IMG/VR virus record: IMGVR_UViG_2595698902_000001
Span: 216,539-280,538 of that record
Source of the DNA: a virus
Lineage: Duplodnaviria; Caudoviricetes
Length of the DNA: 64,000 nt
Reading direction: 5' to 3' (one strand)
Shown here: piece by piece, positions 38,686 to 53,272 of the stretch
Numbering within the stretch: position 1 is the first letter of the stretch
Layout of the letters: every line of letters starts with the position of its first letter
Notes under the pieces: model-generated
The model's database searches: none
Told to the model about the DNA's origin: nothing
The model's input: the letters and a program-made list of their open reading frames with translations, nothing else
Position numbers and translations under genes: made by a program

Positions 38686-39040
38686 TTTCGTTCTCAGGCT
38701 TTGCCATAGTCAGCGTGATTGTTGGTGGGTTATTTTTGATTGCTTCGTAAACCGCGCCTTGCTCCAGAATGCTAACGCGTTTGCCTTTGTAGGATTTCGC
38801 GTTGCCCTTGTCGTCAACCACGAACACAGCCGACGCCACATGCGTGTAGGAATTCGGCGGCACTTCGCATTCGATTTGCAGACCGATGAAACCACGCACA
38901 CGAAACGCATTACCGATCAGATGGTCAATGTATTTGTGAATTTGCGCAGGCTGGATTACCTTGCGCGATTCTTCCGCCGCCTTTTCGGCAACGATGCGCA
39001 ATGCGGCTGGCGCCGGGTAAAGCAGGATGAACTTTTGCAT
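38672..39040 (-). CDS. hypothetical protein
   Basis: 122 aa ORF. Confidence 0.65.
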   Translation of the reverse strand: MQKFILLYPAPAALRIVAEKAAEESRKVIQPAQIHKYIDHLIGNAFRVRGFIGLQIECEVPPNSYTHVASAVFVVDDKGNAKSYKGKRVSILEQGAVYEAIKNNPPTITLTMAKPENENDPA

Positions 39041-39042
39041 TT

Positions 39043-39900
39043 TTAATCGTCCCCTTCGTCGCTGTCGTCGTCTACGTCAAACTCGAAACGTTTAGCCAGA
39101 TCGGCAACCGAACCCTTCATTACCTGCACCACGGAATCGGATGCAGAGCCACGGAAAGAAAGTTGCATTTCTTCGTGGTCATCAGTGAGCGGCCACGGGT
39201 CATCTAGGCGCACAATGCGTCCGCGTTGGTCATTGTCCAGAAACACGGTTTCATTTTTGGCAATTGCTTCGGCGAAACGATCAATGCGGGTCGAACGCTC
39301 AAACACGACTTTCATTGCGCTAGGCAGGAACTGATAAACCTCGTCGTAGTCGCCAGCCTCGTAGTCGGTGTGCGCCGGTTGGTTTTCACTCAAATGGAAC
39401 AGATGCACAGCACGCGCCGCGTAACCAAACGACGGGCCGCGATAGACCAGCCGCGTACCGGCGTCGAGATAGCGCATTTCGTTGCGGCCATTCAACACTT
39501 CGATATCGCTGGTGATGATGAATTCTTTTTCCTGCATTTGCTTCACTTGCTGATAGCAGGAATGCTCGAAGTTATGCAGGACCGAGGAAATCAAATCGAA
39601 ACCAGAATACGGCGGCGATTTGATATTGAGGTTGGTGGATTCCAGCACGGCTTCGTCAGCTGCGCCGCGTGTGCTGATGCCCAGCGTATCCGACGTACCA
39701 AAGCAGGAAAAACCGAGCAGGCCAGTGGTGCAGAAACCGGCGCCGACTACCGTAACTTTTTCTACTGGAATGTCGTACATTTCAGCCATGCGTTTCTTGG
39801 CGTCTTCCGCAACGTCTGCGTGAACAAACATTTCATGGAAGGTCATACCCAGTTCAAAAAGCATTTCGTTTTTCTGAGCTTGCAGCGTGATGTATTTCAT
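39043..39900 (-). CDS. family B domain fused to an unknown C-terminal region
   Basis: MKYIT..F...FVH..VVGAGFC...CFGTSDTLGISTRG..D. Confidence 0.7.
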   Translation of the reverse strand: MKYITLQAQKNEMLFELGMTFHEMFVHADVAEDAKKRMAEMYDIPVEKVTVVGAGFCTTGLLGFSCFGTSDTLGISTRGAADEAVLESTNLNIKSPPYSGFDLISSVLHNFEHSCYQQVKQMQEKEFIITSDIEVLNGRNEMRYLDAGTRLVYRGPSFGYAARAVHLFHLSENQPAHTDYEAGDYDEVYQFLPSAMKVVFERSTRIDRFAEAIAKNETVFLDNDQRGRIVRLDDPWPLTDDHEEMQLSFRGSASDSVVQVMKGSVADLAKRFEFDVDDDSDEGDD

Positions 39901-40217
39901 TTCTCTTCCTCGATTGCTTCAACTTTTACGATGCGGAAACAAGTTTCTTTGACTTCCGCAATCAATGCTTTTGCCTTACAGCCTAATGTCCGCCAGTCTG
40001 TGAAACCGGGCAGCCTATAGGTTGCGCATTCCACACCGTAAGTATTTTCAATTTTGTAATAGGTTCCGGCTGGTTTGTAAGGCAACTCGAATTCGCGATA
40101 ATGCGTGGCACCATCGGGCGGACGAAACATAACCCGTAAAACCCGCCCGTCTACGTCATACAAGTTCCAACCCTCTTTGGGGCGGAGTTGAACAGATTCT
40201 GTAGGGGCTATTTTCAC
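39897..40217 (-). CDS. hypothetical protein
   Basis: 106 aa ORF. Confidence 0.6.
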   Translation of the reverse strand: MKIAPTESVQLRPKEGWNLYDVDGRVLRVMFRPPDGATHYREFELPYKPAGTYYKIENTYGVECATYRLPGFTDWRTLGCKAKALIAEVKETCFRIVKVEAIEEEK

Positions 40218-40432
40218 TTCTTCTCTTTCTCGAAAATGTAGGCGCCTAGCGGTCTGATAAAGAACGGCAGCGGGATCACGATGATCAGCACAAGCTGCAC
40301 GAACTCTACCGCCAGTTTGTATTCACTAAAACCAAAGTGAGCGATCAGGGCGATTACCGTGTAGATAACAGAACACCAGATTAGCCATCTTGCTTTGCGG
40401 CTAATTGGTGACGCTTTAGCGTCGTGTGTCAT
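40214..40432 (-). CDS. small two-TM membrane protein
   Basis: Two hydrophobic segments. Confidence 0.6.
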   Translation of the reverse strand: MTHDAKASPISRKARWLIWCSVIYTVIALIAHFGFSEYKLAVEFVQLVLIIVIPLPFFIRPLGAYIFEKEKK

Positions 40433-40992
40433 ATTTTGCCCTCACGTTTAGCGCGTCTGTATGACTCAAGGAACTGGCGTTTTCTGTAGCGCCGAACATC
40501 CTTGAACAAACGGCCAAAAGTCACCGACGTGTAATCGCCTTCGACATACGAAACGCCTGTGCGTTCGGCAGCAGCTTTCATGTCGGCGGGGCCGAAACCA
40601 GTGTCGGGAACATACACAAAGTTTTTGGCAAAGAATTGTTGCGAACCTTCCCAGCCAACTTCGCCGGTAATTACCCGGTCGCCTTGCCCACCAGCAGTAC
40701 GCAAAGCGCGCAGCATTTTTGTAGCAATGCCTTGGCGACGATGCTCGGGCTTCACGTAAAATTCTGCGTGCCCTTTGTTGACGTAGAAAACCAGAACGCC
40801 AATCGCGTCGGTGTCACGCTGGTTTTCGTAGGCGACGATCAGCATCACTTTCTGTTTGCGGTACGTGCCTACGCTTGCCAGCTCGGGCCACACGTAACGC
40901 AAGTTGCCAATCTTTTCGTACAGGTTTTGGTGGCACAGAAAAGAAGCGGCGTGGCGGACTGATTCTGGCGATGTGTGCAGGAGAAAAATCAT
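40429..40992 (-). CDS. GNAT acetyltransferase
   Basis: FYVKPEHRRQGIATKML (acetyl-CoA-binding motif A). Confidence 0.85.
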   Translation of the reverse strand: MIFLLHTSPESVRHAASFLCHQNLYEKIGNLRYVWPELASVGTYRKQKVMLIVAYENQRDTDAIGVLVFYVNKGHAEFYVKPEHRRQGIATKMLRALRTAGGQGDRVITGEVGWEGSQQFFAKNFVYVPDTGFGPADMKAAAERTGVSYVEGDYTSVTFGRLFKDVRRYRKRQFLESYRRAKREGKI

Positions 40993-41486
40993 TGCGGGAA
41001 CCGCTTTTTAGCCATGAAACGGTTATCGACCAGCGGGCGAGTGAATTCCGCAAACTCGATTTCATCCAGCACGAAATGCGCGCCCATGCACATACGTTCG
41101 ATGTGGGAGAAAACCGAATCCATACGCGCATGATCAGCAGGCCACGTACACAGCAATTGCGTGATGTAGCAGGCAAACACGGTCGCCAACTCTTCGACAA
41201 CAATGCTGCGTTTTTCTGGATCGGCAGGCAGGTGAATTTCTGCGCCCATGAATTCCAGCGGCTTACGGGAACGCATACAGTTGTACCAGCCTTCCCAATC
41301 GGCCTGCACATATTTGTTCACGTATTTGCCGTAAGCATCGCGCTCTTTAACATACGACGGATTGCATTTCTCGAAATCGGCACGCCATACAGCTTCGCGT
41401 TCGGCATTCGCCTTGGCTGCGTCTTCTGGCAGAGTTTTCAGGCGGCGCACGATTTCAGCGGCGGCTTCTTTGTTGATTTTGGTCAT
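40989..41486 (-). CDS. hypothetical protein
   Basis: 165 aa ORF. Confidence 0.65.
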   Translation of the reverse strand: MTKINKEAAAEIVRRLKTLPEDAAKANAEREAVWRADFEKCNPSYVKERDAYGKYVNKYVQADWEGWYNCMRSRKPLEFMGAEIHLPADPEKRSIVVEELATVFACYITQLLCTWPADHARMDSVFSHIERMCMGAHFVLDEIEFAEFTRPLVDNRFMAKKRFPQ

Positions 41487-41731
41487 TTCTTCTTCCTCGA
41501 TTGCTTCCGCATTTTCTTCTTCGCTTTACGTGCTGCGCGATGCTTTTGCGCACCCGGTTGACCAGCACCAGAGGTACGCGAAGCGGTGCGCCCCGTGTAA
41601 CGCGGGCTGTCCCATTCCGGCGCTGCCTTTTGCGGCGACAGGGAATTCATTGCACCGAGGCTAGCAGCCAACGCCAGCGCAGAAAATTTCAACATACCGG
41701 AACTCATTGCGGGTAATCCTCGTTCGGACAA
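41483..41731 (-). CDS. small basic protein
   Basis: Lys/Arg-rich C-terminus; start uncertain. Confidence 0.5.
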   Translation of the reverse strand: MSERGLPAMSSGMLKFSALALAASLGAMNSLSPQKAAPEWDSPRYTGRTASRTSGAGQPGAQKHRAARKAKKKMRKQSRKKK

Positions 41732-42360
41732 TCTTTCGCGATCAGGCTGTAATTCTTAATCATCTTGAGCCATTCTTTCCACGGCAGACGCGGCAGGAAA
41801 TCAGTCGCACCACGTTTGACTATGTAACCGGTCAGATACCGACGCATTCGTTTGCACACAAAACGGATACCGGCGTCGCTAACATCGGCCACATAAAAAT
41901 CGCCGTATATTTTCAGCACGTCGCCATCTTTGATTTCGGCGGGCAGATTGTCGGTATGCGGCAAGTCCACTTCAATTGCACGTTCTGAATACTGAATGCA
42001 GTCCGCTTCATAGTCCGCGACCATGCCTATGCGCATGTTGTACATGCTGCCGGGGTCGCGAATGCTTTCTAGCTCAGCTTTAAGCAGGCGCTCGTAGTTT
42101 TCTTTGATAATTTTTTCTACGATAACAATGCCTGCGTCTGTGAGCGCGGTAGTGCCTTCGTCACCGCCTTTTACGTAGGCCGTCGCAAGGTGAACGTTTT
42201 CAACGCCGTTAACGTCCACGCCTGTGTAAACGATCACGCCGAAATCAGATTCTTCGTTGTCGATTACCACGAAATCTTTGTAGTTCGGCGACAGAGTGTC
42301 AAGCCAGTTATCTACCAGTTCGCTGATTGCGTATTTCAGGTTAGAAAAATCGAGATTCAT
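41704..42360 (-). CDS. hypothetical protein
   Basis: 218 aa ORF. Confidence 0.7.
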   Translation of the reverse strand: MNLDFSNLKYAISELVDNWLDTLSPNYKDFVVIDNEESDFGVIVYTGVDVNGVENVHLATAYVKGGDEGTTALTDAGIVIVEKIIKENYERLLKAELESIRDPGSMYNMRIGMVADYEADCIQYSERAIEVDLPHTDNLPAEIKDGDVLKIYGDFYVADVSDAGIRFVCKRMRRYLTGYIVKRGATDFLPRLPWKEWLKMIKNYSLIAKDCPNEDYPQ

Positions 42361-42369
42361 AAGTCTTCC

Positions 42370-42726
42370 TCAAAGTTCCGTCAATGGTCGGCGCTCAATC
42401 AAATGCGCACGGGTTTTCTTGAAAGCAACCTGTCCGTCAAAGAAGCACAGCGCGCTAGACCTTGTGACTTCATACACACCAACAGCGAAGCCGTGGGCGT
42501 GGAATTTTTCCCGGTGGCGCTTCGGTACAAATTGACGCATTAATTTCAGGTTGCGCCAGCCGTACACGTATTCAGACAATTGCTTGAACTGCTTAGGCGT
42601 GTGGCCGATTGATTCCAGCATTCCGGGCGAGTCTGGATCGTGGTGCTGTTTTAGCCACATGCAGCATTCTTGCTCGCCGTAGAAAGGCCCGTGCCCGTCT
42701 ATGGTTTCCAGCCGGTAAATCACCAC
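42370..42726 (-). CDS. hypothetical phage protein
   Basis: IYRLE..DGHGPF...QVAF. Confidence 0.65.
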   Translation of the reverse strand: MVIYRLETIDGHGPFYGEQECCMWLKQHHDPDSPGMLESIGHTPKQFKQLSEYVYGWRNLKLMRQFVPKRHREKFHAHGFAVGVYEVTRSSALCFFDGQVAFKKTRAHLIERRPLTEL

Positions 42727-43070
42727 GGCGACACGCGCCAGTATTCCAAACTACTGCGCAGCTTTTTCATGTCGTTTTCACTAACGCCACGCGATTCTGC
42801 CAGTTGGAAAATTTCTTCACGCACTTGATCGACCAGATTGCAGCGCGCTTTGTACTCAGGATTCCATTTGCATTCACTGACCAAACCGACCTTCATAAAG
42901 TTCGGAGTGAATTCGTATTTCGCACCACAGGAAAACTCAACGGATTCGTTCCAGTGACCGTTGCAGTGTTTGCCCCAGCGGCGAGTTTCCTTTACGTCGG
43001 ATTTGCCGCACTTCGGGCAGCAAGTTACTTCGGAAATGCGGTTGATACCAATCTGATAGTTAGGCTGCAC
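42720..43070 (-). CDS. Zn-binding hypothetical protein
   Basis: CPKCG...HCNG...F.CG...C. Confidence 0.65.
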   Translation of the reverse strand: MQPNYQIGINRISEVTCCPKCGKSDVKETRRWGKHCNGHWNESVEFSCGAKYEFTPNFMKVGLVSECKWNPEYKARCNLVDQVREEIFQLAESRGVSENDMKKLRSSLEYWRVSPW

Positions 43071-43329
43071 GTTTCTTCTTTCCTTGTACCTTGGTTATGA
43101 AGTGGGCGCGTTCATCATCGCTCCACCTTTCGGTAATCATCCCACAGCATTTGGCGATTTGCCCATTGCCTAAACCGGGGAATAATTTCAGAAGTTCATC
43201 CTTGATAAACTCTGCTTTGGATTTCGGGTAACGGCGAACCAGATTGACGATGCAGCGCACCACGTCGAAGTCGTCATGATCAATGTCAAACGGTTCGTCT
43301 TCTTCCGCTTTTTTCTTCGCCATACCCAC
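43060..43329 (-). CDS. hypothetical protein
   Basis: About 89 aa ORF. Confidence 0.6.
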   Translation of the reverse strand: MGMAKKKAEEDEPFDIDHDDFDVVRCIVNLVRRYPKSKAEFIKDELLKLFPGLGNGQIAKCCGMITERWSDDERAHFITKVQGKKKRAA

Positions 43330-43336
43330 CTCGGTA

Positions 43337-43358
43337 GGAGGGGACCGAAATCCCCTCC
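43337..43358 (-). terminator. UUCG-tetraloop stem-loop downstream of the LemA-like gene
   Basis: GGAGGGGAU-UUCG-GUCCCCUCC. Confidence 0.6.
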
Positions 43359-43366
43359 AACTCTAA

Positions 43367-43963
43367 TCAGTTTTTCTTGGCGCCGGGCAGATCGTACAGG
43401 CCTTGGTCTTGGCCGGTTTCAAACGACAGTTTTGCTTTGTCGTTCATCAGCGGCGCGTACTTGTCGAGGCCATCATTACAGCCGATTGCCAGCTTGGCCG
43501 AACCCATGATACCGATCACAATGTTATTCGGGAAAGTACCGCGATAGGTACAGGCAGCAGTTTTGCGGTCGGTCATCATGTTTTCTTGAACCAAAAACTT
43601 CTCACGGCCTTGGTCAATCAGGTTGATGATTTTCTCAGCCAGCGCCTGCGAAGGTGCAATGTTGTTTTCTTGCAGGAACAGCATGGTCGCTTTCAGACCG
43701 CCATCACCGGCACGGGTAGCGATTTGTTCGTTAACCGTTTTGCGGATGTTTTCAACGTTCATGTCTTGAACGCCAATTGCTTCTTTGATTTTCTGGCTGA
43801 TGTTGGACAGGGTAGCTTGACGCGCTTTGTTCGCGCCTACGATACCCGCTTCCTGCCGAACCACGTTGTTGTTGATCGACGCGCCCCACACAACCAGCAG
43901 GACTACGATGCCTAGTGCAACCAGACCAATGACGCCAGCGCTACCACGTTGCTTCGATTTCAT
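43367..43963 (-). CDS. LemA-like membrane-anchored helical protein
   Basis: N-terminal TM then N..V..E, a helical core and C-terminal TFPNNIV. Confidence 0.65.
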   Translation of the reverse strand: MKSKQRGSAGVIGLVALGIVVLLVVWGASINNNVVRQEAGIVGANKARQATLSNISQKIKEAIGVQDMNVENIRKTVNEQIATRAGDGGLKATMLFLQENNIAPSQALAEKIINLIDQGREKFLVQENMMTDRKTAACTYRGTFPNNIVIGIMGSAKLAIGCNDGLDKYAPLMNDKAKLSFETGQDQGLYDLPGAKKN

Positions 43964-44203
43964 TTACTGCTTTTCCTTTTGAGGATCAAAGTTCCAGTTT
44001 GTGTTGACGCCGCACCAGTGCAGCGCCGATATTACTTCGCGTTGTTTCTTGCAGGTGTCGAAATACATTTTGAAGCAGCTAGGCATTTCTTTCACACGTA
44101 CAAAATCCACCGCGAATCCTTCTGCCAAGTGATAGATAATGTCGTTCATGTTCGGAACGACATACCCGCGATACACGTCCTTTCGGATGCGTACCTTAAT
44201 CAC
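43964..44203 (-). CDS. hypothetical protein
   Basis: 79 aa ORF. Confidence 0.6.
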   Translation of the reverse strand: MIKVRIRKDVYRGYVVPNMNDIIYHLAEGFAVDFVRVKEMPSCFKMYFDTCKKQREVISALHWCGVNTNWNFDPQKEKQ

Positions 44204-45255
44204 CAGTATGCCCGCCGTCTGCTAAACAAACGGTAGCGGTCGCTCATATTATTTACAGTTAACGTCATGCCGATAACGATCAGCGCAACGATCAGAATAT
44301 CCAGCCACAAAGGCGGCGCGTATTCAGCTTCAAGGAAGTCGTATTTGCGCAGGTCTTCCCGGTAGAACAGAGGCAACGCACCATTGAGAACGTTTACGAC
44401 TTTTTCCGGGCTGTATTCGCCCAGCGCTTTCGACTCTTCCAGCAGACGCTGGGTAAACGACCGGCCCTTTTCGTCGGTAGCGTTATCGGACGAACGCCCG
44501 AACACACGCACGTCGTCAACTTTGTTTTCGTTGTCGAGTTTCAGAATCAAAACAGCATCGTTTTTCTTGCCGCCCTGCCATTTGGTGTAAAGCGCTTCTT
44601 TGAACGACGCAATGTCAGTGCCGCTGTTCAGAATTACCACAATTGCGTTTACGCCATACGACGGTCCCCAACTGCGGTGGGCAATGCTCAGCGCTTTCGA
44701 CAATTCGCGCTGGTCTACGGAGTCCACCAGCGAGAACGCCCGCGCCACTTTGAAACCGCCGTAGATTGCCGGGTAAGGAGGCAACCAACCTTTGTATTCC
44801 AGTTCGCGATTGAACTTCACCGTCTGACTAGAAACACGCTGGTAATTCTTGAAGGTTCGCGTATCGGAATACGGATCACCAATGTGCGTAGCGGCATAGA
44901 TTTCCGGCTCACGGTTTTTGTTATAGGTGTAATCGCTATAACTATCCCCGATGTTGGAAATAACATCCCAACGCCAGCGCGGAATTTCCCGCGTGCAATA
45001 CTTTGCGTTGCCATGCGAGTCGTGGCCGCAAATGTAGGTTTCGATTTCCGCATCATACACACGCTGTTTCTTGACGACGGCACCGCTAATCAGTTCGGTA
45101 TCGTTTGCAGAAACTGCGAGCGGAACGTAGTAACCAGCCAAGGCAATTACTGCGCCCAAAACAGCAGCGTAAAGCGTTGGTTCCGGGTCGCGAAACTTGG
45201 CGTACAAAATCCCAAGCAACAACACGACCACAAACAGGTAAATGAAAAGTGACAT
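44200..45255 (-). CDS. membrane protein with periplasmic TPM-like domain
   Basis: Two N-terminal TMs and one C-terminal TM; VNAIVVI...LYTKWQGGKKNDAVLIL resembles TPM/DUF477. Confidence 0.6.
   Translation of the reverse strand: MSLFIYLFVVVLLLGILYAKFRDPEPTLYAAVLGAVIALAGYYVPLAVSANDTELISGAVVKKQRVYDAEIETYICGHDSHGNAKYCTREIPRWRWDVISNIGDSYSDYTYNKNREPEIYAATHIGDPYSDTRTFKNYQRVSSQTVKFNRELEYKGWLPPYPAIYGGFKVARAFSLVDSVDQRELSKALSIAHRSWGPSYGVNAIVVILNSGTDIASFKEALYTKWQGGKKNDAVLILKLDNENKVDDVRVFGRSSDNATDEKGRSFTQRLLEESKALGEYSPEKVVNVLNGALPLFYREDLRKYDFLEAEYAPPLWLDILIVALIVIGMTLTVNNMSDRYRLFSRRRAYW
44250..44260 (-). promoter_or_regulatory. AACTGTAAATA motif
   Basis: Perfect copy about 50 nt upstream of the next start. 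Confidence 0.55.
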
Positions 45256-45263
45256 GGCGGTCC

Positions 45264-45503
45264 TTAGCAGCTACGGCTAGTCAGTTTGTTTTTCGCTTCG
45301 TCCCACGGCACAACACCGGCGCTGATGTTTTGCGGATCGCGCACGACCAGCTCATAGCGGAAACCGTGTTTGCTATCACCGTAACCAGCAACCAGCCTGC
45401 CGCACTGGCAATTCATCCAGCGGAACGGAAAGCCTGCGCTATGGAGCGCGTAAGCGATATGGATTTTATCGTTCGTCGTCAGCAGACCGTTATCCTCAGT
45501 CAT
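45264..45503 (-). CDS. hypothetical protein
   Basis: 79 aa ORF. Confidence 0.6.
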   Translation of the reverse strand: MTEDNGLLTTNDKIHIAYALHSAGFPFRWMNCQCGRLVAGYGDSKHGFRYELVVRDPQNISAGVVPWDEAKNKLTSRSC

Positions 45504-45918
45504 AGTGACGATCCTTGACGAATTTGTACATGTCGGCGAACGATTTGAAATGATCTACCGAGTAATCGGGAATTTCCATTTCAAACTCTTCTTCGAGGGC
45601 CAGAACCATTTCGATTCGGTCCAGATCGTCTACGCCTGTATCCTCAAACGATTCGGCCATATTCTCATGCGTGATTTCTTCACCGAGAATATTTTGCACG
45701 GCGCTGAAAAAGCGACCGGCAAAAGAATGCTTATCGCCGTAGTCGATGTGGGCGCAAGCTTGCGTGCGCGGCAGCTCAGGCGCCGGGGCAGGTTCGGCAT
45801 CAGGCAGCACGCCGGTAATTTGCTCGACAGCAGCAAACAGGGTTTTCAGCTTGTGTACTACGAGCGGACTGCTAGCCATCGCAGTCAGCACGGCACGTTG
45901 TTCATTTTGAGTCAGCAT
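45496..45918 (-). CDS. protein with C-terminal acyl-carrier-protein-like domain lacking the Ppant Ser
   Basis: SFEDTGVDDLDRIEMVLALEEEFEMEIPD..HFKSFAD compared with AcpP [30 protein letters not shown]. Confidence 0.85.
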   Translation of the reverse strand: MLTQNEQRAVLTAMASSPLVVHKLKTLFAAVEQITGVLPDAEPAPAPELPRTQACAHIDYGDKHSFAGRFFSAVQNILGEEITHENMAESFEDTGVDDLDRIEMVLALEEEFEMEIPDYSVDHFKSFADMYKFVKDRHYD

Positions 45919-46168
45919 TGTTTTCCACTCCGTACAGCAGGGTTTGTCGTGCGAGTTGGTACGCACTATCAATCGGCGCAGGCGGAACATTTGGGAAATA
46001 TTGCACCGCTTGCAGGTACTCGACGATCATAGCCTCGGCTTTTTGGTCGTCCGCTTCGTAAAACAGCTCGGTCCAAACGCCTTTGATATAATCGCTCACA
46101 AAAGCTTGACCTAAGCGCTCGCTTGGGCGGTTTGCTTTCGTCCGCTTTTTCCACTCTTCAAAAGTCAT
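45902..46168 (-). CDS. hypothetical phage protein
   Basis: RLGQAF...ELFY motif. Confidence 0.65.
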   Translation of the reverse strand: MTFEEWKKRTKANRPSERLGQAFVSDYIKGVWTELFYEADDQKAEAMIVEYLQAVQYFPNVPPAPIDSAYQLARQTLLYGVENNADSK

Positions 46169-46425
46169 CGCATCAGCTTCCGAACAAGGTAGGAATTGCG
46201 GGCGTAACCAATCACGCGACAGCCCGCATGAATGTGCCCAACTTTTCCGTAGCCGCGATGGGTTTTGAAATCCGGTCGCCCGCTACGCCCATACCAAAAA
46301 CCAGAGAACAAATACATGCCCGGTTTCAACACGTCCACACGGCGCATATCCCGCTTCGTTACCGGCAGCGCAATGTAGTGTTTGCGCCATTTGCTGGTAG
46401 TGCGAACAATGGCAAACTTTTTCAT
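46165..46425 (-). CDS. small basic hypothetical protein
   Basis: 86 aa coupled ORF. Confidence 0.6.
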   Translation of the reverse strand: MKKFAIVRTTSKWRKHYIALPVTKRDMRRVDVLKPGMYLFSGFWYGRSGRPDFKTHRGYGKVGHIHAGCRVIGYARNSYLVRKLMR

Positions 46426-46790
46426 AGCGGCTCCGCTGGAATTGGATTGCGGCGAACGAAACCAAAACTCAAAACGTAGCGCGTACCGGCAACCACAGGC
46501 GACACGCTATGCAAGTGCAGGTCCGGGCGGAACAGCGTGAAAAAGCGATTGGTGAAAATCGCATCGTGGTGCTCCGGTACGCCACCAGATTTCGCGTTCC
46601 ACAAATACACGTTTAACCGGTAGTGCCGGTGGTCTGGCACAGGATCACAATGCAGGGGAATGCCAGCGCCAACCGGGTAGCGCAGAAGGTACAAATCCCA
46701 CTTGAAACGGCTGAAAAACTTCCAGCGATTAAACAGCTTTAGTTTTTCGTAGCCGGTGCCTTGTCGGCCCGCTTCCCATTTGAGTCCCAC
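46422..46790 (-). CDS. 2OG-Fe(II) oxygenase (prolyl-hydroxylase-like)
   Basis: RY..G..I..HCD, LNVYL...GG, H.V..V..G.RYVL facial-triad motifs. Confidence 0.85.
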   Translation of the reverse strand: MGLKWEAGRQGTGYEKLKLFNRWKFFSRFKWDLYLLRYPVGAGIPLHCDPVPDHRHYRLNVYLWNAKSGGVPEHHDAIFTNRFFTLFRPDLHLHSVSPVVAGTRYVLSFGFVRRNPIPAEPL

Positions 46791-46793
46791 GAT

Positions 46794-47030
46794 TCACTTC
46801 CAGAAAAACTTGGCCGGGTAACGACGGTCGGTTTTGCGCTGGGCTTCCATTGCGTAAAACAGACGGGTCAGGTCGGAGGCAGCGTGTGGCGCGTAGCGCA
46901 TCATACGGTCGCGCACAGCGCTTTCGACAGGGCCATTCGTGTGGCCGTGGCCGTCAAACAGAACGTCAAGATTTGCACCTTCGCGAAGCATACCGCGCTG
47001 GTCAAAGAATGCGTCAAGATTGAAATCCAT
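46794..47030 (-). CDS. hypothetical protein
   Basis: 78 aa ORF. Confidence 0.6.
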   Translation of the reverse strand: MDFNLDAFFDQRGMLREGANLDVLFDGHGHTNGPVESAVRDRMMRYAPHAASDLTRLFYAMEAQRKTDRRYPAKFFWK

Positions 47031-47100
47031 TTTTTTATCCTCAGTCTACCGTCATAAAAGACGCACGTTTTTGAACAGAACGTGCAAACTGTTTTACTCG

Positions 47101-47511
47101 TTACAGCGCGTCGCGCATTTTCTTGAGTTCAGCAGGCGACAGCTTTTTCAGCTCTTCGTCTTCTGCCTGCTCGATCAAACGATCCAGATGCTCACGCTTG
47201 GCTTGCTTGCTGTTTTCAGCAGCCGCCGCGTCAGCCTCGGCTTGGCGAACATCGATGATGTGTTTGACGATATCGAATTTCAGTTGCAGGATTTCGTCTT
47301 TCTTTTTGGTTTTCACGAAGCTGGTAACGCCCTGCGCTTCGATTTGCTGGTACAGGTCCAGCGCGATTGCGTCGAGATTCGGCTTGTCCGCAACCTTGCT
47401 GGTCAGCGGCAGCTCCCACAGGTTTTCCACGGTCATCAGGCCACGGGAAGTTTCGTAACGCAGTTTAGCGCGGGAAGCTTGCTCGAAAATGTTTGCGGTT
47501 TGTGCAGTCAT
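47101..47511 (-). CDS. helical phage protein, partner of the 703 aa protein
   Basis: IFEQASRAKLRY...G..TVE.LW.LPL...LKFDIVKHII; AGGA RBS. Confidence 0.75.
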   Translation of the reverse strand: MTAQTANIFEQASRAKLRYETSRGLMTVENLWELPLTSKVADKPNLDAIALDLYQQIEAQGVTSFVKTKKKDEILQLKFDIVKHIIDVRQAEADAAAAENSKQAKREHLDRLIEQAEDEELKKLSPAELKKMRDAL

Positions 47512-47543
47512 GGTGTTTTCCTTTTTACGATTTGATTTGGTGA

Positions 47544-49655
47544 TTAGAACTTGATGTTGAGGATGCGGCTCATGGAACCTTTCACCCGCACTTGCATTTC
47601 GTGACGCTGGCCGACCGAGAAGCCAAGGCCGCTCAATTGGTTTTCGCTGTACGGCGCACGCATTTGCGAAGCAACTACTTCAAACACTTTGCGATGTTGG
47701 TGCAGATCATCACGCAGGAATTCGTTGTAGAAACCACGCGACGACTCTTCGTTTGCGCAGCCTTTCAGCATGAAGAAAACGTGCTCATGGCCGATCTTCT
47801 GATCATTCCAGAAATTCGGCGAGCGGGTAATCAGATCAACCGGCACCCACGATTCGGTCGAAATACCCCACTGCTCTTTGCTCACCGAGTTGCAAGGCAG
47901 GTGGTGCTCGATGCTGAATACGCCCTTTTTCAGGGTAACGGTTGCAACGTGTACCCATTCTTTGTTTTCCAGCGGACGGTCTACTTCGTACTCGAAAATC
48001 TGACCAGCAAATTCGATTTCCGCTTTGAAGCCACCGAGGGTCGGAGCGCGCAAATCCCAGTTGTGGATTTTGCATTCGTATTTGCCGTCTTTCAGCCTCG
48101 ACAAATCAGGGAACGTGATGTTTTCAACAGGCACGTAACCTTCTGGTGCGCGATCAACATAATCCACGTCTTGTACACCACCAGAAATGCGGTCGGTGCG
48201 GTTGTTCCAGCCTACACGCTGGCCGTGGCCGTATTGGTCATGCTTGCCGTTCTTGTGTTCGCAACCCGGCATGAATACGTGCAGGTCCATCAGCGAAGCA
48301 TTGCGTTTGCCGTAGTTCCAGCTATGCGAGAAACGCAGCACGCCGTCTACACGACCGCCCTTTTCTTGCACTGCGCGGCGAATATCGGAATCGGTCATGT
48401 CGCCGTAGTACGACCACGAAAAACCGTTATCCCATTTGAACAGCGGATTTGCATCAGGATGAACCGGCGCCAGCAGGCTCACCATTTGCGGCAGGTGAAC
48501 GTTTTTCACGAACGCTTCAACGGTATCGACTTTCGGCAGAACTTTCTTGATGAAATCCTGAATCGAAATGTCTTCGGCGTGGTCGAACTTCGGCACTTCT
48601 TTTTTGGTCGGCTTGATCGAATCGAACGCACCGCCCAGCAGTTGCTTTTTGACCGAACCGTCTACGAACAAAACGTCGTTTACGGAAATGTCTTCACGCA
48701 CAGCGTAACGGCGCGGCAACGCGGTTTCCAGTTCCAGTTTCTCGACAGTCTTTTGCGCTTCGTCAATCATTTTCTGAGTGACCAGAGCTTTCGGGCGCTT
48801 GTAGTTCGGGCCTGCGACAACAGCCTCGAATTTCTTCACTGCAATTTCCAGCTCTTCGCCGCCGGTAATGTCCAGCAGTAGAGTACCGATTGCTTTGGAG
48901 TGGATGCGAGTTTTCGGCGAGCAGTTCAGCCACAGGAAAATTTCGCGATCACGATCGGTTTTCAGCTTGTTGTATTTCTGTTTCAGCTTGATCAGCAGTT
49001 CGACCGAGTGGCGGAATTCAGCGCCTTTGTACAGCGAATCTTGGTCGATCAAATCGAGCACAATTTCCGCAGCAGCATCGCTGATTTCAGTAATCGAACG
49101 GCGCAGGCCGTTAACGTCGTCTTTTGCTTGGCCGACATAATCGGATTTGTTGTTGGCCCACTGGAAAATCTTCGGTACGTCACCGTGGAAGTGGTGCCAC
49201 GTTTCGCCGGTAATTTTGCTGGTGTTTTTCGCGCAGCCGTAGCTTGGCATTTCAACCACGAACGGATGGGAGATTGGCAGCAGCTTAACCAGCGCCGACA
49301 TGGAATCCGCGACGTGCTGATAAGTCGGGTCTTCGACTTCTACGTCCCACACGGTTTTAATACCGTCTTTGTCCATGTAAATCACGGCGCCGAGATTGCG
49401 CACGAAGTTGCGGCAGTTATCGCAATCGTACTCGGTACGCTCGCGGAACATTTTGTTGGTGCCTTCGGGGAACGAGGCAAGATAATGCGCCCACAGTTGG
49501 TCGCCGGTGCTCGGGCCGTCGATCACATCACCGTTTTCGTCGAGTGCATCAGGGAATTTCACAACGAAAACATTCTGCTTTTCGCCGCCGTCCTTTTGCA
49601 GGATGGTGTTGTAGGCGTTGGTTACTGCTTGGCCGAACTTAATGAAGTTGCTCAT
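47544..49655 (-). CDS. large phage protein with CxxC motif and YfaP/DUF2135-like C-terminal domain
   Basis: YDCDNCRNF; DLHV..P..GG.QDVD..PVENI.F..G.Y...IHNW. Confidence 0.75.
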   Translation of the reverse strand: MSNFIKFGQAVTNAYNTILQKDGGEKQNVFVVKFPDALDENGDVIDGPSTGDQLWAHYLASFPEGTNKMFRERTEYDCDNCRNFVRNLGAVIYMDKDGIKTVWDVEVEDPTYQHVADSMSALVKLLPISHPFVVEMPSYGCAKNTSKITGETWHHFHGDVPKIFQWANNKSDYVGQAKDDVNGLRRSITEISDAAAEIVLDLIDQDSLYKGAEFRHSVELLIKLKQKYNKLKTDRDREIFLWLNCSPKTRIHSKAIGTLLLDITGGEELEIAVKKFEAVVAGPNYKRPKALVTQKMIDEAQKTVEKLELETALPRRYAVREDISVNDVLFVDGSVKKQLLGGAFDSIKPTKKEVPKFDHAEDISIQDFIKKVLPKVDTVEAFVKNVHLPQMVSLLAPVHPDANPLFKWDNGFSWSYYGDMTDSDIRRAVQEKGGRVDGVLRFSHSWNYGKRNASLMDLHVFMPGCEHKNGKHDQYGHGQRVGWNNRTDRISGGVQDVDYVDRAPEGYVPVENITFPDLSRLKDGKYECKIHNWDLRAPTLGGFKAEIEFAGQIFEYEVDRPLENKEWVHVATVTLKKGVFSIEHHLPCNSVSKEQWGISTESWVPVDLITRSPNFWNDQKIGHEHVFFMLKGCANEESSRGFYNEFLRDDLHQHRKVFEVVASQMRAPYSENQLSGLGFSVGQRHEMQVRVKGSMSRILNIKF

Positions 49656-49695
49656 TTACTACACTTCCTCTTTCGTCTTGGGGTGTTGCTTTTCG

Positions 49696-50013
49696 TTATT
49701 TGGCAGCGTCTATGAACGCGTCCAGAAGTTTTTGCGAGTCGGCAGGTTCCATGTCGAATATTTCGATTTCGTCAGTGGCTCGCCATTCTTGTTGCAGGTT
49801 GCCCCACGGGTCGATATACATGACCGCGTAGTCTTTACCGCTGCCCGGTGTTGCGGACGTTGAAAAATCTTGAACGATCAAACCGACAGCGTAGTACGAC
49901 ACGCCGTAGATAAGATTTGCTTCGTGCGTTTTATCACGAAAGCCTTGCAGCCTTTCGCACATCACCGACGTGATTCCAAAAACGCCACTTCTTTCTGGAA
50001 CGCGTCCTGCCAC
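49696..50013 (-). CDS. hypothetical protein
   Basis: ORF; start uncertain. Confidence 0.55.
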   Translation of the reverse strand: MAGRVPERSGVFGITSVMCERLQGFRDKTHEANLIYGVSYYAVGLIVQDFSTSATPGSGKDYAVMYIDPWGNLQQEWRATDEIEIFDMEPADSQKLLDAFIDAAK

Positions 50014-50321
50014 AATTCGGCGCGGTCGTCTCCAACAAACGGGTTTTCGCCTACGTCGCGTTCGCCTTCCTGCGCCATCATTTTACCGAGCTGCGCTGGG
50101 CTGTATTCATCGAATTCATGCTCGCGAACATACAGCACGGAAATGGAAGCGTTACCGCGATGTTTGATTTCGTCCAGCACTGGCTGCGACAGCAGGCGCA
50201 GCGAAGGGCCGTATGCCCATACACAAACGCTGCCCTCAAAAATAACGCGGTCGCCGCTCACGTCTTCTGCGACTTTTACGGTCACGTCAAAACGGCGTTT
50301 GCATTTGGTGAAGTTCATCAT
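49962..50321 (-). CDS. hypothetical protein
   Basis: 119 aa ORF. Confidence 0.6.
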   Translation of the reverse strand: MMNFTKCKRRFDVTVKVAEDVSGDRVIFEGSVCVWAYGPSLRLLSQPVLDEIKHRGNASISVLYVREHEFDEYSPAQLGKMMAQEGERDVGENPFVGDDRAELWQDAFQKEVAFLESRR

Positions 50322-50335
50322 ACAACGTGTTTCCT

Positions 50336-51193
50336 TTAAAGGTGGGTAATACCCAATTGAATTTTGTAGTAGCCGGGCGAACCGTAGACACTATCTACGA
50401 TATCTGCATTTTGGAATTGCAGCAGACCGGCATTGTTGGTCAGTACCACGTCGCCGCTATTCAGCGCGAAGTAGGTAAGGGTTACGCCGTTTTCGTCTAC
50501 GACGGAATCAGGAAAATAAATGATTGCCCGATCCAGCGTCGATACAGCGCCCTTGCTGTCTTTAACATTTACAGTTAATGCGTAGGTGAAGCCACGGCGC
50601 CAAGTGGTACGCCTCGGGCTAAGCAAATGGCCCAACATGGAACGGCCATTCATGACCTTTGCCAGTGGCGTCGGGTTCTCTACCGCATCTTCCTGTTTCG
50701 GCTCTTCGACAGCCGGGCGCATGTCGATATATTGCATACGGAAAGTGAGATTGAAATGGTGCTTGCGCATTGCTTCGCTGCACTGCTCATTGAACTTCGC
50801 ATTATCGGCAGGCCAGATGGTTGCGATATCGCGAAACTTCGCAGGCGACAGCCGCAGAAACGGCGCGTCGGTTTCTTCAAAAATGGACACAAGGCGGTTG
50901 CAAATGTTGTCGATCAACGCAGGCCATTGAGACTCGTCCACGTTGGTGACAGGAAGGCGAGAAATAAAGACTGCCGATCCGATTTGAATTTTGTACCCGC
51001 GTTCGCGCATCGCATTGCGCAAATTGGTGCGGGTAGTTGTGTGCTTTAGCAGGCCCACATTATCCATATGAGAATCGACGGTAGAGGCGAGGGCGAGGCG
51101 GGACATACGCAGCCGCGATTTGCCAGCGGCTTCGTAGGTTTTGATCAGGTTGCTGGTGATGTTCAGAAGTTGTTGCGAATATTGCTGAGTCAT
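50336..51193 (-). CDS. hypothetical protein
   Basis: 285 aa ORF. Confidence 0.7.
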   Translation of the reverse strand: MTQQYSQQLLNITSNLIKTYEAAGKSRLRMSRLALASTVDSHMDNVGLLKHTTTRTNLRNAMRERGYKIQIGSAVFISRLPVTNVDESQWPALIDNICNRLVSIFEETDAPFLRLSPAKFRDIATIWPADNAKFNEQCSEAMRKHHFNLTFRMQYIDMRPAVEEPKQEDAVENPTPLAKVMNGRSMLGHLLSPRRTTWRRGFTYALTVNVKDSKGAVSTLDRAIIYFPDSVVDENGVTLTYFALNSGDVVLTNNAGLLQFQNADIVDSVYGSPGYYKIQLGITHL

Positions 51194-51225
51194 TTTCTTT
51201 TAATCTCGTCTTCCGTCGATTTTCG

Positions 51226-51666
51226 TCAGTTGCTTTCTTGCAGGTCGAGCGTTTCGTGCAGGCCGTCGATAAACGGGTTTTTGATTGCCCGCACTTGGCC
51301 CCAAGGTTTCAAACCAATGTCAGGCATTTCGCGTGCCTGCATATCCCAAAACCATTCATCCGCATGGCGTATCACAGCACCGAGGTTGCTGGCGACCATT
51401 GCGATATAGACCGGATACGTATCCCAGCCTTTGTAGAAATAGCATTTGAAAAACGCAATTACAGCAGCACCGCTATAGGCGCACATTTGCCAGCCGGTCG
51501 GCTCACCTTTCAGGCCTACCACATGAACCGGCGCATCCGGGCACATGGCTTGAATCAGCTCTTTACGCTCTTCGATGAATGGCGCGAAAGGCTGCGACCA
51601 ATCGGCGTAAAACTTCGCAGAATGAAACGAATGCTTTTCAGCAAACGATTCGTATGTAAGTGGCAT
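51226..51666 (-). CDS. hypothetical protein
   Basis: 146 aa ORF with an AGGAGG RBS. Confidence 0.7.
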   Translation of the reverse strand: MPLTYESFAEKHSFHSAKFYADWSQPFAPFIEERKELIQAMCPDAPVHVVGLKGEPTGWQMCAYSGAAVIAFFKCYFYKGWDTYPVYIAMVASNLGAVIRHADEWFWDMQAREMPDIGLKPWGQVRAIKNPFIDGLHETLDLQESN

Positions 51667-51691
51667 AACTCTTCCTCCTGTTCCTACATAC

Positions 51692-51702
51692 TATTTACAG
51701 TT
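51692..51702 (-). promoter_or_regulatory. AACTGTAAATA motif
   Basis: Perfect intergenic copy. Confidence 0.6.
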
Positions 51703-51710
51703 TCGCTAGA

Positions 51711-51740
51711 CTACGCACTCCCGTGCAGGCGAATGCGTAG
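51711..51740 (-). repeat. conserved intergenic hairpin (GCAUUC/GAGUGC family), copy 1
   Basis: CUACGCAUUC-10nt-GAGUGCGUAG. Confidence 0.7.
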
Positions 51741-51752
51741 ACGAACCAGCTG

Positions 51753-52082
51753 TTAGTAATACAACCAACCGTCACGCAGCGGACGGCGAATGCTCATATC
51801 GTCCCATTCATCGAACCGCAAATTGAGTTTGATTACCCGTTTGCAATAACGACGGAAAGGGCGGTCTTGCAAATGGGAACGGAACCAGCGAGGCAATGCG
51901 CCTTTGGTGCCCGTGCCCAAGTAGGAACGACCGTCGCTATGGAACCGCGCTTCGGTTTTTTCTTTGTACTGTTCGTAGGTCAATCCGGCGCTGAAACGCG
52001 ACCGCCACCATTCGTTGCTTTCTTCGCAAATGTAACGGTGACGGACACAGGCCAGATCGGTACGGCGGAAAGTACGGGACAT
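51753..52082 (-). CDS. Arg-rich hypothetical phage protein
   Basis: Start MSRTFRR with a GGAG RBS. Confidence 0.65.
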   Translation of the reverse strand: MSRTFRRTDLACVRHRYICEESNEWWRSRFSAGLTYEQYKEKTEARFHSDGRSYLGTGTKGALPRWFRSHLQDRPFRRYCKRVIKLNLRFDEWDDMSIRRPLRDGWLYY

Positions 52083-52142
52083 GCAGGAAACTCCAGTTTG
52101 AATTGGCTTAATGCCACTGGGTTTCCACATACTGGAAAAACA

Positions 52143-52412
52143 TTAGTTCTCCTTTGGACCGAACCACTTATTATGTACCCACGTTGCTAGCACGATTGAG
52201 CAAGCTGCCGATGTGCCAGAAACAAGTGAATACCACCAATCGCCTTGCATGAATATTTTTGCGTAGCTGCCAACGGCCAGCACTTCAAAAACGCCCATGA
52301 CGTAAGACGTAACGAACATCCCAATCCATTTGTTATGCACCACGTTTTTGTACTGAAAACCTTTGAGGAAAACAGCAACGAACGTGATGCAGAACGCAGT
52401 CACATACAGCAT
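52143..52412 (-). CDS. 3-TM membrane protein, paralog of 28753-29127
   Basis: FVAVFLKGFQYKNV. Confidence 0.7.
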   Translation of the reverse strand: MLYVTAFCITFVAVFLKGFQYKNVVHNKWIGMFVTSYVMGVFEVLAVGSYAKIFMQGDWWYSLVSGTSAACSIVLATWVHNKWFGPKEN

Positions 52413-53261: not shown

Positions 53262-53272
53262 TGTGTGATTCC

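What the first reader, a model, noticed from the sequence alone, without database searches (positions are those of the whole stretch)
45496..45918. Phage ACP-like domain with Ser replaced by Asp at the phosphopantetheine site: candidate ACP mimic or decoy
Seen: the last ~75 aa closely follow AcpP (FEDTGVDDLDRIEMVLALEEEFEMEIPD vs [29 protein letters not shown]), but the DSL serine is Asp (codon 45625-45627), and the domain is fused to a ~65 aa N-terminal extension through a Pro/Ala linker. Established: that Ser is the obligatory Ppant attachment site, the acidic helix II is the partner-binding surface, and E. coli ACP also binds SpoT and MukB outside fatty acid synthesis. Inference: it cannot carry acyl groups, yet helix II is intact, so it may be a non-loadable, possibly phosphomimetic decoy that occupies AcpS, FAS or lipid A enzymes, SpoT, MukB or an ACP-dependent defence factor.
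Basis: partly seen in the sequence, partly recalled or inferred. Interest (0 to 1): 0.85.

Follow-up and report, generated by a model that had tools for sequence, protein, structure and literature searches.

The report
Serine-less acyl carrier protein mimic
A giant phage keeps a well-conserved copy of the bacterial fatty-acid carrier protein in which the one serine that must hold the cofactor is an acidic residue, so it cannot carry lipids and most likely works by docking onto other proteins; its target is still unknown.

Summary
Window 45496..45918 (-) encodes a 140-aa protein. Residues 62-140 are a true ACP domain: Pfam PP-binding 25.7 bits against a cut-off of 20.8, and an AlphaFold model that matches P. 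putida holo-AcpP. Asp98 (GAT, 45625-45627) sits at the phosphopantetheine serine, at the start of helix II.

This is neither an error nor decay. All 7 members of its clade carry Asp (5) or Glu (2) there, and helix II is invariant.

The 280.5-kb phage genome holds a second ACP-like domain (58380..59105, Ser->Glu). The family searches found no PPTase, ketosynthase, acyltransferase or adenylating enzyme in it.

The nearest cultured relatives keep Ser. All 6 Ackermannviridae "acyl carrier protein" genes I sampled carry Asp or Glu.

The protein is therefore a non-loadable ACP mimic that acts by binding.

This scan has noted the same kind of protein on other phage DNA. My ten literature searches found no paper that describes it in phages. 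The closest published analogue is the Ppant-less mitochondrial ACP of Plasmodium.

The parts
45496..45918 (-). Gene for the 140-aa ACP-like protein (P0001), stop included
   Evidence: ORF and translation. GGAG before the ATG, and overlaps with both neighbouring genes.
45799..45918 (-). N-terminal extension, residues 1-40; two predicted helices of low confidence
   Evidence: AlphaFold helices 4-14 and 21-31, pLDDT 53-64. No match outside the clade. Least conserved part, mean pairwise identity 0.65, with a 17-column insertion in two members.
45736..45798 (-). Pro/Ala-rich linker, residues 41-61 (AEPAPAPELPRTQACAHIDYG)
   Evidence: Disordered in the model, pLDDT 43-53. Its length varies among homologs. 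Contigs of relatives in three runs differ here by insertions totalling 6, 12 and 6 bases.
45499..45735 (-). ACP (PP-binding) domain, residues 62-140
   Evidence: Pfam PF00550 over its cut-off. Four helices 66-78, 98-111, 118-123, 127-138 at pLDDT 78-91. Foldseek best hit 7pdi, P. putida holo-AcpP, TM 0.73 by target, 34% identity.
45586..45627 (-). Helix II (residues 98-111, DLDRIEMVLALEEE), the partner-recognition helix of ACPs
   Evidence: Invariant in 7 of 7 clade members except for D/E at residue 98. Of the 15 positions 97-112 other than residue 98, 13 carry the commonest or second-commonest residue of the aligned ACP domains; R101 and M104 do not.
45625..45627 (-). Codon GAT = Asp98 at the phosphopantetheine-serine column
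   Evidence: The column is Asp in 5 and Glu in 2 of 7 clade members.
58380..59105 (-). Second ACP-like gene of the same phage (241 aa, P0008). Residues 1-82 (58860..59105) are an ACP fold with Glu41 (GAA, 58983-58985) at the serine column; a 160-aa helical C-terminal part of unknown kind follows.
   Evidence: PF00550 15.9 bits, below the cut-off. hhalign probability 96.2% to the ACP alignment. PDB sequence hits are ACPs at 6e-5. AlphaFold residues 11-80 at pLDDT 87-95. Foldseek TM 0.82-0.91 by target to ACP structures. Codon checked.

Best explanation
The gene encodes a 'dead carrier'. It has a correctly folded acyl-carrier-protein domain that cannot receive 4'-phosphopantetheine, because the attachment serine is Asp, and so it cannot carry acyl groups. 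Selection keeps an acidic residue at that site and keeps the acidic recognition helix II unchanged.

The protein most likely works purely by protein-protein binding. Its helix II would dock onto the basic ACP-binding surface of a partner, while the flexible Pro/Ala linker and the N-terminal helices tether or orient it.

My preferred partner class is host enzymes or complexes that normally bind the host's own ACP. The protein would then behave like a permanently unmodifiable apo-ACP, a competitive occupant or inhibitor of ACP clients such as glycerol-3-phosphate acyltransferase or fatty-acid-synthesis enzymes.

Shown here: the fold, the loss of Ser, conservation of the acidic residue and of helix II, and no match to any of the four ACP-linked enzyme families searched in the phage.
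Inferred: binding of any kind, the identity of the partner, and the effect on the host.
For: Fold and family:
- Pfam score over the cut-off.
- AlphaFold ACP four-helix bundle; the listed Foldseek hits are ACPs, free or as chains of complexes with their partners.

Loss of Ser is fixed, not accidental:
- 0 of 7 clade members have Ser (5 Asp, 2 Glu), at 68-93% overall identity to the query.
- Insertions between relatives total multiples of three bases and lie only in the linker.

The binding surface is kept:
- T-G-V-D-[DE]-L-D-R-I-E-M-V-L-A-L-E is identical in all 7 members.
- The ACP domain is more conserved (0.84) than the N-terminus (0.65).
- Every nearly invariant family column other than Ser is present.

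No phage-side carrier chemistry was found:
- No PPTase, AMP-binding, PlsC-type acyltransferase or ketosynthase family match in the 280.5-kb genome, while the control genomes ring.

The pocket side looks filled:
- Aromatic fraction of residues 88-137 is 0.14, against 0.071 +/- 0.020 in 145 Ser-bearing domains; none of them reaches it.
- F, F, M and Y stand where the family has I/L, V, A/V and V/I.

The same change recurs:
- A second ACP-like domain in this genome has Glu.
- 6 of 6 sampled Ackermannviridae ACP genes have Asp or Glu.
- 2 of 80 viral loci have Glu.
- All 14 D/E domains outside the clade have a Ser-bearing nearest neighbour, which suggests repeated origins.

Literature, passages read:
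- apo-ACP inhibits glycerol-3-phosphate acyltransferase more strongly than holo-ACP and stops growth (PMC3896788).
- MukB binds apo- and holo-AcpP alike (PMC8602292).

Literature, abstract read:
- A Ppant-less ACP works by binding Isd11-Nfs1 in Plasmodium (PMC8547962).
Against:
- The host is unknown.
- Several positions outside helix II depart from the ACP consensus: L->T at residue 94, E->Y at 119, and fewer acidic residues in helix III. This could mean a partner other than the canonical ACP clients.
- The N-terminal extension and flexible linker look more like a tether within an assembly than like a free decoy.
- ACP homologs of other large phages were picked up in mass spectrometry of phage preparations: Eneladusvirus (PMC7760394, passage) and one retrieval in a Vi01-like phage (PMC10892097, table passage). 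This hints at a structural or packaged role.
- The acidic residue may only cap helix II.
- Expression was not shown. The RNA run laid gave only three short, divergent pieces.
Confidence: 0.45

Rival explanations
1. It is a tethered adaptor or structural subunit of a phage-encoded assembly, possibly virion-associated or packaged. The ACP fold would be reused as an acidic docking module, as cells use ACP in MukBEF, complex I, Nfs1-ISD11, EmbAB or MmpL5. The partner would be a phage protein, not a host ACP client.
For: - The architecture is an N-terminal extension plus a flexible Pro/Ala linker.
- The second ACP-like domain of the phage is fused to a 160-aa helical region, and relatives fuse ACP to other extensions.
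- The gene lies in one co-directional, overlapping gene run, two genes from a 'virion structural protein' (phrog_1383).
- A very basic 86-aa protein (pI 11.3) is encoded two genes upstream here and directly upstream of the ACP gene in HRDY3.
- An ACP was detected by MS in Eneladusvirus particles (PMC7760394, passage), with one retrieval in a Vi01-like phage (PMC10892097, table passage).
- PDB hits include ACP as an accessory chain of large complexes.
Against: - A phage-specific partner gives no reason to hold helix II at the bacterial consensus.
- The MS evidence comes from other phages, concerns a Ser-bearing ACP in one case, and is a single retrieval in the other.
- No conserved immediate neighbour is shared with Ackermannviridae. 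Their vWA-like neighbour has no match in this genome.
- The 79-aa downstream gene is not adjacent to the ACP genes in HRDY3.
Confidence: 0.3
2. It is a specific phosphomimic. The Asp or Glu carboxylate imitates the phosphodiester of holo-ACP, so the protein passes as holo-ACP to partners that reject apo-ACP (for example SpoT-type or Ppant-sensing proteins) while never being acylated.
For: - Only acidic residues occupy the site in the clade (5 Asp, 2 Glu) and in 6 of 6 Ackermannviridae genes.
- 13 of the 18 non-Ser domains outside the clade, not counting this phage's own second ACP-like protein, are acidic.
- SpoT is reported not to bind apo-ACP (PMC3896788, passage), so a mimic would need something in place of the phosphate.
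Against: - Asp is also among the best helix N-cap residues, and the serine is the first residue of helix II. A purely structural reason therefore fits as well.
- My phmmer ranking favours D/E because the query itself has D.
- Earlier notes of this scan list Gln and Pro at the same site in other lineages (not checked by me).
- A carboxylate is a poor stand-in for a phosphodiester that carries a long arm.
Confidence: 0.15
3. It is a decaying ACP paralogue with no function of its own.
For: The nearest cultured relatives keep Ser in the ACP genes of the same genomic slot, so the loss is recent on that scale.
Against: - The reading frame is intact in 7 sequences of 68-93% identity to the query.
- Helix II is invariant and the D/E exchange is conservative.
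- Insertions in relatives total multiples of three bases.
- The same state is fixed across the sampled Ackermannviridae.
Confidence: 0.04
4. It is still a carrier, loaded at another residue or through unusual chemistry.
For: Ser89 and Thr94 lie a few residues before helix II.
Against: - By established ACP/PPTase biochemistry, attachment is to the Ser of the D-S-L motif at the helix II N-terminus.
- No PPTase or loading-enzyme family matches in the phage.
- Ser89 is Thr in two of the seven clade members (P0159 and the fragment P0009); Thr94 is invariant in the clade.
- At the family level neither position holds a conserved hydroxyl residue. The position of Thr94 is Leu in 157 of 176 domains.
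Confidence: 0.03

Closest known systems
Bacterial type II FAS acyl carrier protein AcpP (PF00550; best structural match P. putida holo-AcpP, PDB 7pdi; also E. coli 1l0i and 3ejb)
   Same: Four-helix fold. About 30-38% identity over 71-80 aligned columns among the better-ranked hits. The helix II motif D-x-L-D-x-[VI]-E-x-V-x-A-L-E-E-E-F-x-x-E-I-P-D is kept.
   Different: Asp in place of the Ppant serine. A 61-residue N-terminal extension. More aromatic residues on the pocket side. It scores 43.7 bits against TIGR00517, far below the equivalog cut-off of 70.45.
Phage ACP genes with extensions that keep Ser: Pseudomonas phage HRDY3 XDJ15383/XDJ15384, Yersinia phage fHe-Yen9-04 g153, Pseudomonas phage pf16 gp58
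   Same: ACP domain joined to an unrelated extension. Same genomic slot in HRDY3. 41-51% identity over helix II to helix IV. Yen9-04 g153 shares 'IPDY...FK' after helix II.
   Different: All of these have D-S-L and so may still be loaded by a host PPTase. Their extensions are not homologous to this one.
'Acyl carrier protein' genes of Ackermannviridae (Kuttervirus Marshall, SS9, SE14, rabagast; Klebsiella phage phi1_146041; Serratia phage phiMAM1)
   Same: ACP-like domain with Asp or Glu at the serine column in 6 of 6 sampled, with D/E alternating between close relatives, preceded by a short N-terminal extension.
   Different: Only weak sequence similarity to this protein (tblastn E 0.2-1). 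They have a different C-terminal half (D-G-W-L-G...) and different neighbours, including a vWA-like protein that has no match in this genome.
Plasmodium falciparum mitochondrial ACP lacking Ppant (Falekun et al. 2021, eLife 10:e71636, PMC8547962; abstract and outline read)
   Same: An ACP homolog that has lost the prosthetic group, is retained, and works by binding a partner (Isd11-Nfs1).
   Different: A eukaryotic organelle protein with a known partner and a known essential role.
apo-ACP as an inhibitor in E. coli, and AcpP as a MukB cofactor (review PMC3896788 and PMC8602292; passages read)
   Same: These show that an ACP without Ppant can still bind and affect ACP clients. It inhibits glycerol-3-phosphate acyltransferase and stimulates the MukB ATPase as holo-ACP does.
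   Different: Those are the host's own ACP in an unmodified state, not a dedicated, genetically unmodifiable protein. No phage protein is involved.

Membership tests
Pfam PP-binding (PF00550) / ACP-like fold | Profile score at or above the curated gathering cut-off | tested here: met
   25.7 bits against 20.8, E 1.4e-5, residues 86-134.
Pfam PP-binding (PF00550) / ACP-like fold | Four-helix bundle with helix II beginning at the attachment site | tested here: met
   AlphaFold helices 66-78, 98-111, 118-123, 127-138 at pLDDT 78-91. Foldseek hits to ACP structures at TM 0.70-0.80 by target.
Functional (holo) carrier proteins | Conserved Ser of the D-S-L motif that receives 4'-phosphopantetheine | tested here: not met
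   Asp98, codon GAT. 0 of 7 clade members have Ser.
Functional (holo) carrier proteins | Actual modification by a PPTase and acylation | not testable with these tools
   Needs Sfp/AcpS labelling or mass spectrometry. No PPTase family match in the phage genome.
Housekeeping AcpP (NCBIfam TIGR00517, equivalog) | Score at or above the equivalog cut-off | tested here: not met
   43.7 bits against 70.45.
ACP recognition surface | Acidic helix II residues and the flanking D, L, D, E, E-E-E-F, I-P-D columns | tested here: met
   All columns that are at least 90% conserved in 124 sequences are present except Ser.
PHROG phrog_5934 (phage 'acyl carrier protein') | Profile match | tested here: met
   E 5.4e-12, 46.7 bits, residues 80-136.
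Ppant-less ACPs that act as binding subunits (Plasmodium mACP type) | Loss of the attachment Ser with retention under selection | tested here: met
Ppant-less ACPs that act as binding subunits (Plasmodium mACP type) | Demonstrated binding to a defined partner | not testable with these tools
No experiment was possible.
Known anti-phage defence or counter-defence proteins (PADLOC-DB) | Profile match | tested here: not met
   0 families for this protein, for the second ACP-like protein and for three neighbours.

The most novel reading that the evidence does not exclude
Large virulent phages have repeatedly turned the host's acyl carrier protein into a genetically unloadable, acid-capped mimic. This genome has two, and all sampled Ackermannviridae have one. 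The mimic would jam or hijack the host's ACP-client network (phospholipid, fatty-acid or lipid A synthesis, or an ACP-dependent SMC-like or stress-signalling complex). That would be a previously unrecognised class of host-takeover or counter-defence protein, currently mislabelled in databases as an auxiliary metabolic 'acyl carrier protein'.
Probability: 0.3. Interest if true: 0.8.

Novelty: new variant of a known kind. Interest (0 to 1): 0.6.

Why it matters
- Phage 'acyl carrier protein' genes are routinely listed as auxiliary metabolic genes, as in the PHROG category and the record annotations. For this protein, and for every Ackermannviridae gene I sampled, that label cannot be right, because the carrier residue is missing.
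- If the protein is a decoy of host ACP clients, it would give a simple, testable way in which phages shut down or redirect envelope lipid synthesis. It would also give a natural tool for probing ACP-partner recognition without acyl chemistry.
- Ackermannviridae are cultured and genetically tractable, so the question can be put to experiment directly, even though this jumbo phage's host is unknown.

Tried and rejected
- Single-protein scans for related loci. Viral contigs gave 3 pattern matches and none confirmed. Metagenome contigs gave 50 loci, all ordinary Ser-bearing ACPs and none a close relative.
- Promoter and terminator scan of 43000-50500: counts no higher than in shuffles.
- Sequencing runs. 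No run holds half of the sampled words. Contigs of 4 runs were laid. The table of differing letters was cut before the Asp codon, so it says nothing on that site. The RNA run gave only three short, divergent pieces, so expression is neither shown nor excluded. I draw no conclusion about habitat.
- PADLOC: no match.
- Idea that the Kuttervirus neighbour Marshall_87 (vWA-like) equals the window's 703-aa protein: rejected (BLASTP E 0.04; no match in the genome).
- Idea that the overlapping 79-aa downstream gene is an obligate partner: weakened, because its HRDY3 homolog lies three genes away from the ACP genes.
- Two other viral Ser->Glu loci (L007, L019) share no neighbours with this one.
- Literature: ten full-text searches found no paper describing a serine-less ACP in a phage. 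Supplementary tables, such as the virion MS lists of PMC7760394 and PMC10892097, could not be seen and may bear on virion association.

Full report
**What is there**

Window 45496..45918 on the minus strand is an intact 140-codon gene.
- The ATG at 45918 follows a GGAG.
- The gene overlaps the end of the upstream 88-codon gene by 17 nt and the start of the downstream 79-codon gene by 8 nt. It therefore sits inside a tightly packed, co-directional run of small genes.
- The window is the last 64 kb of a 280,538-bp virus record that CheckV rates complete.
- Its nearest cultured relative is Pseudomonas phage HRDY3 (313 kb). A 703-aa neighbour is 70% identical and a 122-aa neighbour 87% identical to their HRDY3 homologs.
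- BFVD holds a letter-identical protein under UniProt accession I1TR04, so the protein is already in public databases.

**Is it an ACP?**

Yes.
- Pfam PP-binding scores 25.7 bits against a gathering cut-off of 20.8.
- phrog_5934 'acyl carrier protein' scores 5.4e-12.
- phmmer against PDB sequences returns 95 matches at E<=0.01; the 60 shown are all acyl carrier proteins, by name or as the ACP subunits of respiratory complex I.
- An AlphaFold2 model built on 124 sequences gives residues 62-140 at pLDDT 78-91, with helices 66-78, 98-111, 118-123 and 127-138.
- Foldseek places the model on ACP structures. The best is P. putida holo-AcpP 7pdi: TM 0.73 by target, rmsd 2.5, 34% identity.
- It is not a housekeeping AcpP. 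TIGR00517 gives 43.7 bits against a cut-off of 70.45.

Residues 1-40 are two low-confidence helices, and residues 41-61 are a disordered Pro/Ala-rich linker. Neither has any relative outside the protein's own small clade.

**The serine**

Asp98 (GAT, 45625-45627) aligns with the Ser of D-S-L and is the first residue of helix II. Any Ser codon differs from GAT by at least two bases, which follows from the genetic code.

Seven sequences form the clade: P0001-P0004, P0158, P0159 and the 55-aa fragment P0009. They are 68-93% identical to the query over their length. At this column five have Asp and two have Glu, and none has Ser.

Background frequency of Ser at this column:

| Set | Ser | Other |
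|---|---|---|
| Best viral ACP loci | 78 of 80 | 2 Glu |
| Metagenome ACP loci | 50 of 50 | none |
| Aligned domains among the 157 proteins in store after the representative search | 154 of 185 | 11 Asp, 8 Glu, 2 Thr, 1 each Pro/Phe/Leu, 7 gaps |

That last ranking is biased towards D/E, because the query itself has D.

**Selection**

- Within the clade, T-G-V-D-[DE]-L-D-R-I-E-M-V-L-A-L-E is identical in all seven sequences.
- Mean pairwise identity is 0.89 for the loop plus helix II, 0.84 for the whole ACP domain, 0.71 for the linker and 0.65 for the N-terminus.
- Contigs of relatives in three public runs differ from the window by insertions totalling 6, 12 and 6 bases, all in the linker.
- Every column that is at least 90% conserved among 124 ACP sequences is present, apart from Ser.
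- On the side that lines the acyl pocket in canonical ACPs (my recollection of E. coli AcpP numbering, not tested), the protein has bulkier residues: F124, F127, M130 and Y131 where the family has I/L, V, A/V and V/I.
- The aromatic fraction of residues 88-137 is 0.14, against 0.071 +/- 0.020 in 145 Ser-bearing domains. None of them reaches it. This fits a filled, unused pocket, but it is an inference.

**Genome context**

- The phage has a second ACP-like domain, at the N-terminus of a 241-aa protein (58380..59105, minus strand).
  - It scores below the Pfam cut-off (15.9 bits).
  - It aligns to the ACP profile at 96.2% probability and hits only ACPs in PDB sequences at E<=0.1.
  - It folds at pLDDT 87-95 into the ACP bundle and matches ACP structures at TM 0.82-0.91.
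  - Its serine column is Glu41.
  - It is not a recent duplicate of the first protein; its nearest neighbours are other ACPs.
- Family searches of the whole phage genome found no PPTase, AMP-binding enzyme, PlsC-type acyltransferase or ketosynthase. The same searches ring in 10-14 of 14 control genomes.
- In HRDY3 the same slot holds two ACP genes, both with D-S-L. The slot lies between the homologs of the 86-aa basic protein and the 351-aa membrane protein.
- Yersinia phage fHe-Yen9-04 g153 and pf16 gp58 also keep Ser.
- The loss is therefore specific to this lineage and affects both of its ACP-like genes.

**The same change elsewhere**

- Marshall, SE14, Klebsiella phage phi1_146041 and Serratia phage phiMAM1 have Glu at the serine column.
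- SS9 and rabagast have Asp.
- That is 6 of 6 acidic. Caulobacter phage phiCbK keeps Ser.
- All 14 D/E-bearing domains outside the query's clade have a Ser-bearing nearest neighbour. This is a crude sign of several independent losses.
- Some Ser-less ACP-like domains among the representatives follow signal-peptide-like or lipoprotein-like N-termini, or stand in tandem arrays.

**How it most likely works**

Attachment of phosphopantetheine to the D-S-L serine is the defining chemistry of carrier proteins (established knowledge). Without that serine the protein cannot be a carrier.

What is conserved is the acidic helix II, the surface through which ACPs are recognised by their partners. I therefore read the protein as a binding-only ACP mimic.

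I prefer host ACP clients as the target (confidence 0.45) for two reasons.
- Helix II is held at the bacterial consensus rather than drifting towards a private interface.
- None of the four ACP-linked enzyme families searched has a match in the phage.

Passages I read support the principle.
- apo-ACP inhibits glycerol-3-phosphate acyltransferase more strongly than holo-ACP and stops growth (PMC3896788).
- MukB is stimulated equally by apo- and holo-AcpP (PMC8602292).
- SpoT is reported not to bind apo-ACP (PMC3896788).

The main rival (0.3) is a tethered adaptor inside a phage assembly.
- The extension-plus-linker architecture suggests it.
- So do the fusions seen in relatives.
- So does the conserved, very basic 86-aa neighbour.
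- ACP was detected in mass spectrometry of other large phages (PMC7760394 passage; one retrieval in PMC10892097, table passage).

Whether the acidic residue mimics the phosphate or simply caps helix II is open. Decay and non-canonical loading are unlikely.

**Comparison with what is known**

- The protein is a member of the PP-binding fold family.
- It fails the defining feature of functional carrier proteins, the attachment serine.
- It fails the AcpP equivalog threshold.
- Functionally, the closest published case is the Ppant-less mitochondrial ACP of Plasmodium, which binds Isd11-Nfs1 (PMC8547962, abstract read).
- I found no paper describing a serine-less ACP in a phage in ten full-text searches. 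Supplements were closed.
- Earlier notes of this scan describe the same kind of protein in other phage genomes. I checked only the Ackermannviridae claim.

**Verdict**

Non-loadability and the intact, conserved helix II are shown. The decoy role and its targets are not.
- It is a new variant of a known kind.
- Interest is 0.6: a real, conserved and recurrent feature that contradicts the routine 'auxiliary metabolic gene' label and can be tested in cultured phages, but whose mechanism remains inferred.

Noticed in passing
window 58380..59105 (-): Second serine-less ACP-like domain in the same phage. It is the N-terminal 82 residues of a 241-aa acidic protein (pI 4.4), with Glu41 at the serine column, followed by a helical C-terminal part that has no relatives except one 99%-identical protein. 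BFVD lists a 241-aa entry, I1TR29, among the matches.
   Followed up: yes
window 46165..46425 (-): An 86-aa, very basic protein (pI 11.3, charge +18). Its HRDY3 homolog (41% identity) lies directly upstream of, and overlapping, the first ACP gene there. Here an 88-aa acidic gene is inserted between the two.
   Followed up: partly
window 47544..49655 (-) and phage records: The 703-aa protein (phrog_1735, function unknown, sometimes annotated as RNA polymerase or DUF2135) has homologs in 550 phage records. An ACP-like gene lies within 0.5-7 kb of it in pf16, HRDY3, this window and several Kuttervirus records, but 12.6 kb away in phiRSL1 and 33 kb away in Caulobacter phage Ccr10. This may be an old shared module; no functional link is shown.
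   Followed up: partly
L141-L146 (Ackermannviridae records): Genes annotated 'acyl carrier protein', in one record under 'moron, auxiliary metabolic gene and host takeover', have Asp or Glu at the Ppant serine in 6 of 6 records read. In Kuttervirus they follow a roughly 739-aa vWA-like protein that has no match in the window's genome.
   Followed up: partly
proteins P0010, P0013, P0091, P0139 and locus L019:3308-4162: Several ACP-like domains without Ser (Asp, Glu, Pro, Thr or Phe at the site) follow signal-peptide-like or lipoprotein-like N-termini, some as tandem ACP repeats. This suggests exported, non-carrier uses of the ACP fold.
   Followed up: no
window 5500..6888 (-): A 462-aa protein matching phrog_6215 'glutathionylspermidine synthase' (E 3.6e-120), an unusual auxiliary gene for a phage.
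   Followed up: no
window 46422..46790 (-): A 122-aa protein, 87% identical to its HRDY3 homolog, with a weak 2OG-Fe(II) oxygenase match (20.1 bits, below the cut-off of 27) and a strong match to phrog_13746. It is far more conserved than its neighbours.
   Followed up: no
window 1..64000: The window carries no tRNA, has an even GC content of 50-53%, and its likely genes lie almost all on the minus strand. Most of the 20 larger proteins scanned have no PHROG match, as expected for an accessory arm of a jumbo phage.
   Followed up: partly
window 45775..45787: Contigs of relatives in three public runs carry insertions totalling 6, 12 and 6 bases, all within the Pro/Ala linker of the ACP-like gene. 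The linker's length is free but the reading frame is kept.
   Followed up: partly
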